Assembly: GCA_964016885.1 (NCBI GenBank)
Contig: OZ024740.1
Coordinates: 271,374,001-271,438,000 of the forward strand
DNA: 64,000 bases
DNA from: Eledone cirrhosa
Taxonomy: Eukaryota
Direction: 5' to 3'
The translations under genes were made by a program, and so were the position numbers. Positions 13,994 to 35,774 of the stretch are shown here, one piece after another (positions within the stretch are counted from its first letter, which is position 1; each line of letters begins with the position of its first letter). The notes under the pieces are model-generated. The model did not search any database. It saw only the letters and a program-made list of their open reading frames with translations, and was not told where the DNA came from.

Positions 13994-14030
<37 letters not shown>

Positions 14031-15291
14031 CGAAGGAAATGTGATAAGGAACCAGGTGGACCATAACGCACCAAAGTACTCAATACTTAGGGTAGTAGAG
14101 TGGGTAATAGGAACAAGTAAGACCCCGACGGCTGAGCTCAAGCCGTTTCGACGGCTAATTCAGTCCAGAATTAGCCGTCGAAACGGCTTGAGCTCAGCCG
14201 TCGGGGTCTTACTTGTTCCCATATATATATATATATATATATATGCATGTATGTATGTTTGTATGTATGTATCTATGTATGTAAGTGTGTATAATGGAGG
14301 TATGAATATGTTTTAATTGTTATTAGTATTAGTATTCTCAAATCAGGGTAGTGAATTAGCTGAAATGTTAGAGCACACATGGACAACCTTTTTGGAGAAG
14401 CGGGCCGCATGAGATATAAAATCATTGTTTCTACTTTTGGCACAAGGCCAGCAATAACCCAGTGCATTACTGGTACTTTATTTTATCGACCCAGTAAGGA
14501 TGAAAGGCAAAGTTAACCTCGGTGGGAGATATAAAATAATGTTCAAGTAACGTACTGGGGTCGATTTAATCGACTTTCTTCTTCCCACATTTGCTGGCCT
14601 TGTGTCTAAATTAGAAACCATTATTTGAATGGTGGTGGATTGGCAGTATCGGTAGAGGGCCGGACGCCATGCTTTGACGCATAGAGTTACGGCCCTTGCC
14701 ATTCTGAGTTCAAATCCCGCCGAGGTTAACTTTGCCTTTCATCCTTACGGGGTCGATAAAATAAAGTACCAGTAATGCTCTGGATAATTGCTGGTCTTGT
14801 GCCTAAAGTAGAAACAATTATTTATAGTCGGGTGGATTGGCAGTATGCTTAGAGAGTCGAACGCCATGCTTTGCAGCATAGAGTTATGGCCCTTTATGAT
14901 TTGTGTTCAAATCCCGCCGTGGTTAACTTTGCCTTTTATCCTTACGGGGTCGATAAAATAAAGTACCAGTAATGCTCTGGGTAATTGCTGGCCTTGTGCC
15001 AAAAGTAGAAACAATTATTTGAATGGTAAAATGGCAAAATCGGTTGAACGTTAGACGCCATGCTTTGCAAAACAGAGTTACGTTCTGAGTTCAAATCCGG
15101 CTGAGGTTATCTTTGCTTTTCAGTCTTTCGGAGTCGATAACATTAATTACCAGTAACGTACTGGGGTCGATTTAATCGACTTCCCTCTTCCCACAATTGC
15201 TGGCCTTGTTGGTGGAGTGGCAGAATCGGCAGAGCGTTGGAAAAAATGCTTTCTTTGTGGTATTGTAATGGTAGTGGTAGTGGTGGTGGAG

Positions 15292-19522: not shown

Positions 19523-19766
19523 ATATTTGGGGAGGGTCATATTTGCGTAATATTGCCAGAATTAATAACAGAACACACTCACTGTTTGGTTGGTTTTCGC
19601 TTCTCGCTGTCTTTTACTAATTCATCGCCGCTATATATATATATATATATAATAGCCGTCGAAACAGTTTGAGCTCTGCCGTCGGGTCATACTTTTTCCT
19701 ATATATATATATATATATGAGTGTGTGTGTGTGTGTGCGTGTGTGTGTGTGTGTATGTATATATAT

Positions 19767-20747: not shown

Positions 20748-20786
<39 letters not shown>

Positions 20787-21145
20787 AAAAATTTTAACCC
20801 CGACGGCAGAACTCAAGCCGTTTCGACGGCTATTTCTAGTCCAGAAATAGCCGTCGAAACGGCTTGAACTCTGCCGTCGGGGTTAAACATTTTCCTATTA
20901 CCCACTCTACTGCTCTAAGTATTGAGTACTCTGGTGCGTTATGCTCCATCTGGTTCCTTACCATACCTCCTTCGTTATATATATATATATATATATATAT
21001 GCACCAATTTTTTAAGGCAATAATTGGTGCTTTGCTGGTTTGGTTTGCTGCATGGCTGGATGGTTGGTTAGATAGTGGTCATCCAAGGTTAAAAAGTGAG
21101 TGGAAATATATATATATAAATGTGTGTGTGTATGTGATGTGTGTT

Positions 21146-28735: not shown

Positions 28736-28737
<2 letters not shown>

Positions 28738-28930
28738 AACAAGTATGACCCCGACGGCAGAGCTGAAGCCGTTTCGACGGCTAATTCTGGACGAGTCCAG
28801 AATTAGCCGTCAAAACGGCTTCAGCTCTGCCGTCGGGGTCATCCTTGTTCCTATTACCCATTCTACTACCCTAAGTATTGAGTACTTTGGTGCGTTATGG
28901 TCTATCTGGTTCCTTACCACATTTCCTTCG

Positions 28931-28931
<1 letters not shown>
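28736..28931 (+). mobile_element. Fold-back family B (terminus of the GIY-YIG PLE); other copies at about 14029-14220, 19652-19700, 20785-20975, 28969-29080, 30816-30873, 35633-35728
   Basis: Inverted arms around GACGGCTAATTCTGGAC-GA-GTCCAGAATTAGCCGTC plus an unpaired tail ending CCACATTTCCTTCGT; (TA)n on both sides. Confidence 0.85.
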
Positions 28932-28971
<40 letters not shown>

Positions 28972-29262
28972 GATTCGGGACCGCCATTGCTGAGCTCCGG
29001 CCGTTTCGACAGCTAGATCCCAAGTAACGTGTACTCTGGTGGGTTATGGTCCACCTGGTATTTTACCACACCCTATCTGATATATAAATATATAGTATCA
29101 GCCGTACTAAGAGTGAGAAATGAAATTTCATTATTTCCATTTATCGTTTCCGGTACACCCGGCCGACCAACTCACTCGATATGCAAATTAGGCTGCTCAG
29201 CCGTTAATATGCATAAGGAAAGTATATACTTTCAAACGTCCAATCGACTGACAGGAAGGTAT

Positions 29263-30803: not shown

Positions 30804-30905
30804 ATATATATATATGTTCGAATCTAGCTGTCGAAACGGCCGGAGGTCAGCCGTCGGGGTCCTGATTCTTTTCCTATATATATGTATATATATATATATA
30901 TATAT

Positions 30906-33215: not shown

Positions 33216-33871
33216 GTCTATTTTTGTACGTCCTCATCACATGTCTATTTTTGTTAATATTTTGAATTAATATTAATAACTCCGGAAAACCATCTTGTGG
33301 AGTGCTTCTAATCTATTGTAAAACTTTATTCTTTGATTTATTCATTGAACTTTGTTTAACCTTTAAATATATATACTATAAGGTTAAATCTATACATATA
33401 TAGTGTATATTGAGTAAGTTACTCAACAAAGGAAGCTCAATGAATAGTTAGTACAGAGCATTATACAAATTAAAATGATATGCAAAAAATTCTCTTTCAT
33501 ATATTTAGTTGAGAAACAACTAGTATCGTGTTCATATATATATAATGATAATAATAAATGTACTCACTCAGAAAGAATCAACTCAAGATTATATATATAT
33601 ATATATATGGGGGGGGGGGGGGGTATTGTCTTTAATGCATTCGAAACTAGAGTGATCCAGAGAAGACAGCCGGTGAGCGAGAATTGACCTTATGTTTGTA
33701 TCTTCCATGTTTTCACCCACGTGTCTTTTTTAAATAATATTTATTTGTAACAACACAGCCTCATTTTTAATTCTACATTATGTATATATATATAACATTG
33801 AAAGCGAATATATATATATATATAGTATAAAAAACGAAAAATCAGTGATGCATCTGGACTCAGTTTATTGC

Positions 33872-33959
33872 GTGTTACAATTGTTTCGCCGGCAGGTAGC
33901 TCGAGACATGATCACTGTATGGATCTGGCTGATTCTACGGCTACAGGTTCTTCGGACAC
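33872..33959 (-). ncRNA. Hammerhead-like motif with a long stem II and a U4C core change
   Basis: Reverse complement: GTGT-CCGAAGA-(long insert)-GAA-ACAATTGT-A-ACAC. Confidence 0.55.
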
Positions 33960-33979
33960 ATGCAATTCTTTCGGAGCAA

Positions 33980-34340
33980 ATTTTCTGATGGTTCCTCTGA
34001 TGCATAAGTTACACGGACGGCGTCCTCCCGTGTAAGAGTTAGCTCTGGACAGTAAGCTCCAAGTGAGATTGTAGGTTATATTATTATCTTTGAGGTCTCA
34101 GATGTGGCCCGAAAGTGTAGTGGAATGACGCCGGGCCGGGTTTCGGAAAGTATGTCGGTGTAGGTAGAGCCGGGTCTTGAAGTCACAAGCGGTTAATCCT
34201 ATATAAGCTTTGGTGGTGTCCGTCCTCACGTTGCACTGGTAGATCACATTACGATCTCGGCATCGGTTGTTGAGGGGGAAAAGGGATCCATCAGGACAGT
34301 TACACCTCCTGGTCGGCTCTCCACTGCTGTCTAGGTTATT
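33980..34340 (-). pseudogene. Penelope-like element GIY-YIG endonuclease fragment (inverted segment)
   Basis: Manual minus-strand translation: RCNCPDGSLFPLNNRCRDRNVIYQCNVRTDTTKAYIGLTACDFKTRLYLHRHTFRNPARRHSTTLSGHI*DLKDNNITYNLTWSLLSRANSYTGGRRPCNLC. It has the VIY..YIG motif and an upstream Cys cluster. Confidence 0.85.
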
Positions 34341-34346
34341 TCTTCC

Positions 34347-35589
34347 ATAACCTACAATCTCACTTGGAGCTTACTGTCCAGAGCTAACTCTTACACGGGA
34401 GGACGCCGGCCGTGTAACTTATGCTCAGAGGAAACATTACAAATGATGTTTTCAAAGGACCAACTCCTAAACAAGAAAGACAAACTGGTAACTGGATGCA
34501 AACACAGATTGCGTAGGACTTACCTCGCCCTCAAACCCCAAAATGACCCGGGGGTAAACAAGGGCTGAAATACCCCACTTGCCGATTTTGTAAGGGGTTA
34601 CCCCTGCTTACAAAGGTAGACGTAAATCTTTTATCTTTTCCTTCTTCCCCCATCTCTTCCTAGTCCTTCCACCCCAGATCTCCTTGTCTTTTTTTCACCT
34701 TTTCGCCTACCCCGATGTAGCCCATCGGTCCTCTGTAGCCTCAGTACCCCCACCCCCCTATTTTTAAGATAGAATTGGCCGATTATGCTTTTTACAGCAG
34801 ATGTGTTAGACCCCAGTAAATTGTTTTCTTTCTGGTTGCTGCTCCATTTCTGTGATTTCTAAATTTCCTAGTGGTATGTTTGTATTAGTATCCTTGTATT
34901 AGTATTTCTGTATTAGTATTCTGAATTAATATTTCGTATTAGTATTTTTGTAGTAGTAATTTAGTATTTTTGTTTTTAACCCGTCATTGTAAGATAGCAT
35001 TGGCTGATTACTAACTAACTATAGCAGAGGTGTTAGACCCCCCGTAAAGCCGGCTTTATAAAATTCTTTCACTACAATCTCGTATTTAGTACTTTTCTCC
35101 ACCTATTAAACTTAGCTTAGCAATACCAATGAGAGATTTGGTGATTGTGGAAGAGTAGTAACCAGAAATTATTTTTTATATATTTATTTCCTTATTTTTA
35201 TAATGGTTTCGTTGTTTACTCCCTTTCGATTTACCTATTCTTTCAACTCCCCCCTCCCCTTCTCCAGTACACTTTTCTCGACCTTCTATACACTATCCTT
35301 AGAATCTGTTGTATAGATTTCACTTTCAACGCTTGACTGGGTTTCCCCCACTCCCTCTTTGTTCTACCGGCAAGTTCAGCTTCCCCTACCCCCCACCAAA
35401 TGCCATGATAGAATCATCTGTCTTTACAACAAATTTTTGACCAATCCCTTTGGACAATTACTATCTTCCCATATAAGGAAATACCCCCTGAGAAGTTCGG
35501 CTATTTATTTGCCAGGCTAAAAATTCTTATTTAGTCCAGAATTAGCCCTCGAAACGGCTTGAGCTCTGCCGTCGGGGGTCATACTTGTT

Positions 35590-35591
<2 letters not shown>
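34347..35591 (+). mobile_element. PLE 3' end: GIY-YIG C-terminus (stop 34566-34568), about 0.9 kb of 3' UTR, and a degenerate hammerhead-bearing terminus, followed by (TA)n
   Basis: ITYNLTWSLLSRANSYTGGRRPCNLCSEETLQMMFSKDQLLNKKDKLVTGCKHR...*. About 100 bp are duplicated in inverted orientation at about 33980-34079. The terminus matches fold-back family B. Confidence 0.8.
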
Positions 35592-35634
<43 letters not shown>

Positions 35635-35725
35635 CGAAGGAAATGTGGTAAGGAACCAGGTGGACCATAATTCTAGAATTAGTCGTCGAAACGGCTTGAG
35701 CTCAGCCGTCGGGGTCCTACTCGTT

Positions 35726-35774
<49 letters not shown>

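What the first reader, a model, noticed from the sequence alone, without database searches (positions are those of the whole stretch)
33980..35728. GIY-YIG remnant physically links fold-back family B to an autonomous Penelope-like parent
Seen: a PLE-type GIY-YIG domain is missed by the ORF track. It is split into a minus-strand N-terminal part and a plus-strand C-terminal part with about 100 bp duplicated in inverted orientation. After about 0.9 kb of UTR it ends in CCCC-CTGAGAAG..GGCTA/TAGCC..GAA-ACGGC ttgagctct GCCGT-C-GGGG, a degenerate type I hammerhead. This is the same sequence that makes up the short palindromes at 14029, 20785, 28736 and 35633. Inference: it is the long version of the same insertion process.
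Basis: partly seen in the sequence, partly recalled or inferred. Interest (0 to 1): 0.75.

Follow-up and report, generated by a model that had tools for sequence, protein, structure and literature searches.

The report
Broken Hydra-type Penelope retrotransposon copy
This is a broken, folded-back copy of a known kind of jumping gene (a Hydra-type Penelope element), and the short hairpin repeats nearby are its shortest insertions, likely made when the element's RNA is copied from both sides of a DNA cut until both copies run off its predicted capped start.

Summary
Real, and the link holds. The stretch is a 5'-truncated, head-to-head insertion of a Hydra-clade Penelope-like element (PLE), not Neptune, Poseidon or Naiad. 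The family-B end follows the GIY-YIG region in 24 of 29 other copies. Near-full-length copies (about 3.3 kb) exist, but none of 20 fetched has an intact ORF.

Corrections:
- The short palindromes hold only the hammerhead's 3' half, and 35633 is not a palindrome.
- The overlap is about 87 bp and is probably what a later deletion left. The left end is fused to a second fold-back family.
- The 'degenerate' core is a subfamily state: C3·A8 in 1,500 exact matches, U3-A8 in 4,220.

Short arms stop at one point inside stem II, often with an extra G, which likely marks a capped RNA start. Exactly one arm carries the 80-nt tail in 53 of 54 short and 24 of 26 long pairs.

Inverted copies, tail, TA targeting and pLTR hammerheads are published. 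This scan already reported the same mechanism and the mismatch at many other places in this genome. New member of a known kind.

The parts
33825..33986 (-). Terminus of a second abundant fold-back family ('family C'), ending at the left TA tract without its tail; carries a hammerhead-like string with a CCGAAGA core (read by eye)
   Evidence: 97% to other family C copies; fold not supported by energy
33987..33991 (.). 5-nt filler at the family C / family B junction
33992..34349 (-). Left (inverted) arm: linker CxC-x5 and N-terminal GIY-YIG; in-frame stop at 34095-34097; outer ~1.2 kb missing
34347..34349 (.). 3-bp microhomology (ATA) joining the two 5'-truncated arms head to head
   Evidence: gap -3
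34347..34568 (+). Right arm, C-terminal GIY-YIG (PCNLC..E, CKH) to the stop codon
34569..35482 (+). 3' UTR with a 55-nt direct repeat (34762-34814 / 34987-35041)
35483..35579 (+). Type I hammerhead motif: stem I, core C3(35488)-U-G-A-N7-A8(35493)-A, long stem II, GAAA, 5-bp stem III with palindromic loop, predicted cleavage after 35573
35533..35533 (+). Position -57 of the family (A of TTAGTC), where short arms stop; predicted capped transcription start
35580..35591 (+). End 'A' (no tail), abutting (TA)n
35634..35727 (.). Separate short family-B insertion of a sister subfamily: tail stub (minus, 35634-35670) plus 56-nt arm (plus, 35672-35727)
14030..14219 (.). Short palindrome, tail on left arm
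20785..20975 (.). Short palindrome, tail on right arm, other subfamily
28736..28931 (.). Short palindrome, tail on right arm, extra G at -58, both arms share a rare variant
19653..19699 (+).

Best explanation
The locus is a decayed head-to-head insertion of a high-copy Hydra-clade Penelope-like retrotransposon, likely made by cutting both strands of a TA repeat and copying one RNA from two start sites 80 nt apart, and the short family-B palindromes likely come from the same reaction running off a predicted capped RNA start. Shown: the element anatomy, the link between GIY-YIG and terminus, two fixed 3' ends, tail on exactly one arm, pile-up of short-arm ends near -57, and matching subfamily in both arms. 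Inferred: long insertions start at the downstream pLTR copy of a longer-than-unit RNA and truncate at random, while short ones start at the upstream copy and run off; the two cDNAs are joined by microhomology. Inferred for this copy: a later deletion fused its left arm to a neighbouring family-C insertion, leaving the ~87-bp overlap. Predicted: the C3·A8 hammerhead cuts poorly and was not needed for this subfamily's spread.
For: Link. Full unit pLTR-tail-ORF-UTR-pLTR-tail in L107, L108, L116 and others; the tail runs on into the 5' UTR and ORF start. Hydra motifs. Master copies under purifying selection: 21 synonymous to 12 non-synonymous fixed differences between subfamilies, against 47 to 134 among private changes. 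One tail: 53 of 54 short pairs; 24 of 26 decidable long pairs, 18 of 44 undecided. Short-arm 5' ends: 85 of 111 between -62 and -50 in tail-selected loci; 10 of 10 between -61 and -47 in 400 kb taken by position. G next to arms ending at -57: 16 of 26, against 7 of 57 for arms ending at -55..-44 (p 8e-6). Both arms same subfamily in 41 of 41 typed pairs, 13 of 54 untyped; 18 shared variants against 5.1 in shuffles, 0 of 5000 reaching it. Short-long mixed pairs are rare, 5 of 128 junction calls. In vitro a PLE protein cuts and extends both strands, starts at two sites that bound the tail, is predicted dimeric and does not need hammerhead cleavage (PMC11167929). Deletion origin of the left end: neither outer end has a tail; L179 shows a C/B fusion with two tails and a 7-nt stub of the lost B arm.
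Against: No RNA data. Some of the G's at -57 can be templated by the partner arm. Arm concordance could reflect subfamilies active at different times, gene conversion or fold-back copying. Only 6 of 25 long pairs are closer to each other than to every other copy; many are no closer than average. Most near-full-length copies carry 160-1,100 nt of upstream pLTR rather than 57 (read by eye), so some templates start upstream of -57 or the enzyme jumps; my crossover test could not tell which. The overlap lies within 100 nt of the right arm's start, as internal twin priming would give. Samples were mostly the top 40 hits of similarity searches.
Confidence: 0.72

Rival explanations
1. The adjacency is a chance nested insertion: family B is an independent mini-element that landed behind a GIY-YIG remnant.
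For: Both target TA tracts and do pile up there (35634 insertion, family C).
Against: 24 of 29 other GIY-YIG copies carry the same terminus at the same distance through a shared UTR; full units exist.
Confidence: 0.01
2. Inverted arms arise by self-priming or fold-back of a single cDNA (or of an antisense template, as proposed for rotifer Penelope), not by two primed strands.
For: Arms share rare variants; self-priming is proposed in PMC3846280 (passages); 6 of 25 long pairs are unusually alike.
Against: It does not readily explain why one arm ends at A and the other at B in 77 of 80 pairs, why both arms can carry their own extra G (L195, L200, L214), or the unequal arms with unique central segments.
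Confidence: 0.15
3. The window's split GIY-YIG is an L1-style internal twin-priming inversion or a template switch in one event, with the left cDNA started on a family-C RNA.
For: Both outer ends are termini at TA; overlap only ~87 bp; a second B/C-like head-to-head join exists (L069); the junction has a short filler.
Against: No tail at either end; it is the only one of 55 GIY arms capped by another family; L179 shows such joins can arise by deletion.
Confidence: 0.15
4. Short palindromes are mostly self-propagating non-autonomous mini-elements, transcribed from their own tail-bearing arm and mobilised in trans.
For: They greatly outnumber long copies (8 of 9 sites in 400 kb) and would contain the predicted start plus both priming sites.
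Confidence: 0.2

Closest known systems
Hydra clade of C-terminal EN+ PLEs, e.g. Hydra-1_Obim, Hydra-1_Amil (Craig et al. 2021, PMC8557442; passages, section 11, Files S1/S2 and alignment passages seen)
   Same: Single ORF with RT then GIY-YIG; no CCHH; CxCX5C linker; DKT; RW-basic motif; CxxC and CxH around E/N; (TA)n target; pLTR hammerhead; a 5'-truncated inverted copy is listed for Penelope-13_HM.
   Different: Unit about 3.3 kb with ~1 kb 3' UTR (Hydra 'generally <3 kb'); tail 80 nt against 30-40; RWR for RWK; all listed Hydra hammerheads have a C3/G8 core, this family has A8 with U3 or C3 and a long stem II; a distinct family from Hydra-1_Obim (compared by eye, no identity computed).
General PLE insertion architecture (Penelope of Drosophila virilis, PMC2377424 passages; Adineta vaga Penelope, PMC3846280 passages; Fig. 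2 legend of PMC8557442)
   Same: Partial tandems, inverted 5'-truncated copy, tail on one end, transcript starting inside the upstream pLTR.
   Different: Here stub-sized palindromes are the dominant product and stop at one position.
PAc (Poseidon of Anolis) in vitro mechanism (PMC11167929; parts 1-2 of 4 read)
   Same: Both strands cut and extended, two start sites bounding the tail, AT-rich target, hammerhead dispensable.
   Different: Other clade; that study does not describe head-to-head run-off products in the parts I read.
U3-A8 hammerheads of Schistosoma Cercyon PLEs (Cervera and de la Pena 2014, PMC4209133; parts 1-2 of 4 read)
   Same: U3-A8 covariant core in pLTRs; opposite-strand motif pairs 100-700 bp apart; palindromic loop 3.
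   Different: Here stem III is 5 bp, and one lineage amplified with C3·A8.

Membership tests
Penelope-like elements (EN+) | Single ORF with RT and GIY-YIG EN | tested here: met
   RT with YRDD upstream of GIY-YIG in one frame, L116; Pfam and PDB give no hit, so the call rests on motifs and the alignment
Penelope-like elements (EN+) | pLTR / partial tandem, inverted copy, tail | tested here: met
Hydra clade | CCHH absent (no two Cys between GIY and YIG) | tested here: met
   VIYQCNVRTDTSNKAYIG has a single Cys and short spacing like the Hydra rows
Hydra clade | CxCX5C linker | tested here: met
   CNCPDRSLC in L033, L107, L110; the window copy has F at the last Cys
Hydra clade | DKG changed to DKT; RWK motif | tested here: met
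   HSDKTGN and RLRWRTF in L113, L115, L121; RWR rather than RWK
Hydra clade | CxxC and CxH flanking conserved E and N; (TA)n target | tested here: met
   PCNLC..E..N..CKH; TA flanks
Hydra clade | Canonical hammerhead in pLTR | tested here: inconclusive
   Motif present but core is U3-A8 (4,220) or C3·A8 (1,500); 48 sporadic G8
Hydra clade | RT phylogenetic placement with reference sequences | not tested
   Reference sequences were only readable in the paper's supplement; compared by eye
Neptune / Penelope-Poseidon / Nematis | CCHH motif inside the EN | tested here: not met
Naiad / Chlamys | N-terminal EN; no canonical hammerhead | tested here: not met
   EN is C-terminal
Active type I hammerhead | Watson-Crick pair 3-8 | tested here: not met
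   C3 with A8 in the window copy and its subfamily; pair requirement from PMC3884650 passages and PMC11167929
Active type I hammerhead | Self-cleavage | not testable with these tools
   needs an assay
Autonomous element | Intact ORF copy in the genome | tested here: inconclusive
   0 of 20 near-full-length loci intact, longest open stretch 557 of about 733 codons; purifying selection on master lineages

The most novel reading that the evidence does not exclude
The tens of thousands of short palindromes are a genomic read-out of the unresolved PLE reaction: a two-part enzyme primes both target strands at two sites on one sense, capped RNA whose start splits the hammerhead, commits both cDNAs to the same pLTR copy (short pairs with short, long with long), and does so without a working ribozyme, as shown by a lineage that made at least 1,500 long arms with a C3·A8 core.
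Probability: 0.5. Interest if true: 0.55.

Novelty: new member of a known kind. Interest (0 to 1): 0.3.

Why it matters
How PLEs make inverted copies and tails is stated as open in PMC8557442. This family gives large in vivo counts that fit the in vitro two-start, two-strand result, names a testable transcription start, and offers a natural U3-A8 versus C3·A8 pair for asking whether the ribozyme matters. The locus itself is an ordinary decayed copy. The architecture is published, and the added points were already reported by this scan elsewhere in the same genome.

Tried and rejected
Pfam on fragments and on 557/499-aa products: no family. PDB sequences: none. Rfam: no hammerhead hit, only microsatellite-driven noise.

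My first clade guess, Neptune, was rejected on CCHH and linker. Reading the core as a U7 deletion was rejected because position 7 varies while A8 is fixed.

A retrovirus-like strand transfer at -57 got no support: middle against downstream pLTR differed 5.5%, 4.1%, 7.0% and 6.0% in the four regions (12 tandems). One copy (L031) switches type at the cleavage site.

Arms starting at the cleavage site are rare: 3 of 95 incidental tail arms start at -21..-12. The direction of the U3/C3 change is unresolved: one split on an unrooted tree of 39 of 74 rows, with 22 of 96 dropped for coverage. No coding part of family C was found within about 1.9 kb upstream in 12 loci.

No measured rate for a C3·A8 core was found; PMC1986816 was not held. 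Searches for a published strand-transfer or cap run-off model and for a cephalopod-focused report listed nothing beyond the papers cited; subscription papers and bioRxiv supplements are not covered. In one search about 9 of the 53 long-long calls are internal-repeat or spurious calls and 4 are near-short.

Full report
Observation. The six-frame translation shows a PLE-type GIY-YIG split between the minus strand (33992-34349) and the plus strand (34347-34568). The arms meet head to head at a 3-bp microhomology. BLAST gives a 98-bp inverted duplicate, but comparison with other copies limits family-B sequence to about 87 bp. Beyond a 5-nt filler, 33825-33986 is 97% identical to the terminus of another abundant fold-back family, here called family C. 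The right arm continues through about 0.91 kb of UTR and a hammerhead motif and ends at 35591 against (TA)n. The short elements at 14029, 20785 and 28736 are head-to-head pairs of the last 52-65 nt, with an 80-nt extension on one arm. 35634-35727 is a separate, non-palindromic insertion.

The link. The window lies in a 3.0-Gb genome, G000. Of the 30 best GIY-YIG matches fetched (of 40 listed), 25 including the window have the family-B terminus 0.7-1.3 kb downstream on the same strand. Across all loci 46 of 55 decidable GIY arms reach it; two of the nine misses are diverged-subfamily arms whose termini appear in other calls. Twenty loci chosen for the 5' end show the unit pLTR, tail, 5' UTR, ORF, 3' UTR, pLTR, optional tail, about 3.3 kb. 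The 80-nt extension is the PLE tail: it runs seamlessly into the ORF start of the next unit. None of the 20 has an intact ORF of about 733 codons. Fixed differences between subfamilies are mostly synonymous (21:12) and private ones are not (47:134), so the masters were autonomous. L108 joins a 52-nt short arm to a full-length tandem. Forty 10-kb stretches taken by position hold 9 insertion sites, relatives included, one of them long. That gives about 67,000 sites (31,000-128,000) genome-wide.

Clade. Following a lead from earlier scan notes I tested the Hydra features of Craig et al.: C-terminal EN, no CCHH, CxCX5C linker, DKT, RWR, CxxC and CxH, TA target. All are met, and the protein follows the Hydra rows of their alignment by eye. 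Neptune, Poseidon, Nematis and Naiad fail on CCHH or domain order. No tree with references was built.

Hammerhead. The window core matches its subfamily consensus. Position 8 is A throughout the family and position 7 varies. Position 3 is U in several subfamilies and C in at least two, including this one. Exact genome-wide counts are 4,220 U3-A8, 1,500 C3·A8 and 48 with G8, with 0 in the reversed controls. U3-A8 is a published covariant (PMC4209133). The 3-8 pair is structural (PMC3884650), and breaking it abolishes cleavage in PAc without stopping insertion (PMC11167929). C3·A8 is therefore predicted to be weak. I found no measured rate, and rare core variants can stay functional (PMC7151607).

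Mechanism. Short arms do not end at random. 85 of 111 arms in tail-selected loci end between -62 and -50, 46 of them at -58..-56, and 10 of 10 anchored arms in the position sample end between -61 and -47. Arms ending at -57, the A of TTAGTC, are preceded by G in 16 of 26 cases against 7 of 57 elsewhere, as expected from copying a cap (recalled from other reverse transcriptases). Some of these G's may come from the partner arm. One arm has the tail in 53 of 54 short and 24 of 26 decidable long pairs. Both arms share subfamily in 41 of 41 typed pairs and share rare variants above shuffles. Short arms pair with short and long with long; only 5 of 128 junction calls are mixed. This fits two-strand priming at two adjacent sites, at the upstream pLTR for short products and the downstream pLTR for long ones. 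Against: only 6 of 25 long pairs are uniquely alike; full-length copies usually carry more than 57 nt upstream; the strand-transfer test was flat; there is no RNA evidence; most samples are ranked by similarity.

This copy's left end. Neither outer end has a tail, unlike 77 of 80 pairs, and it is the only GIY arm capped by another family. L179 shows a C/B fusion with two tails and a stub of the lost arm. A deletion between neighbouring insertions in one TA tract is therefore the likeliest origin. A one-step template switch is not excluded (L069).

Known or new. Inverted 5'-truncated copies, tails, TA targeting and pLTR hammerheads are described (PMC8557442; PMC2377424; PMC3846280). The 2026 retrozyme preprint (part 1 of 5 and passages) concerns tandem non-coding derivatives. 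The run-off reading and the mismatched lineage were not found in my paper searches, but unreviewed scan notes report both at other places in this genome.

Noticed in passing
window 33825-33986; L093, L226-L237: Family C: a second fold-back family with the same two-end, one-tail, TA-target layout, an 85-nt tail sharing a motif with the family-B tail, a hammerhead-like string with a CCGAAGA core and palindromic stem III, and at least 1.9 kb without a detected ORF.
   Followed up: partly
L069:953-1911; L179:1262-1619: Two further head-to-head joins of family B with family C-like arms.
   Followed up: partly
L031:5377-5420: The middle pLTR switches subfamily type right at the predicted cleavage site; single case.
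   Followed up: partly
L125:2955-7539: Partial tandem whose upstream and downstream pLTRs belong to different subfamilies (C3 and U3 cores).
   Followed up: partly
window 28978-29070 and 30820-30875: Short arms of a more distant relative (GGCCGGAG loop), with its own tail variant.
   Followed up: no
L045:7982-9901; L046:4222-5595; L082:3-1056; L124:653-1552: Other Hydra-like ORFs; the L046 EN region is 41% identical to this family. Several PLE families coexist.
   Followed up: no
family 3' UTR, positions about -675 and -470: A short internal inverted repeat recurs in many copies and produced false junction calls.
   Followed up: no
L123:6741: An arm ends about 560 nt early at an internal GTGTTCC|TA that resembles the normal end: deletion by microhomology or an alternative start site.
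   Followed up: no
L043:3443-4819: Long tandem array of a short unit open in several frames.
   Followed up: no
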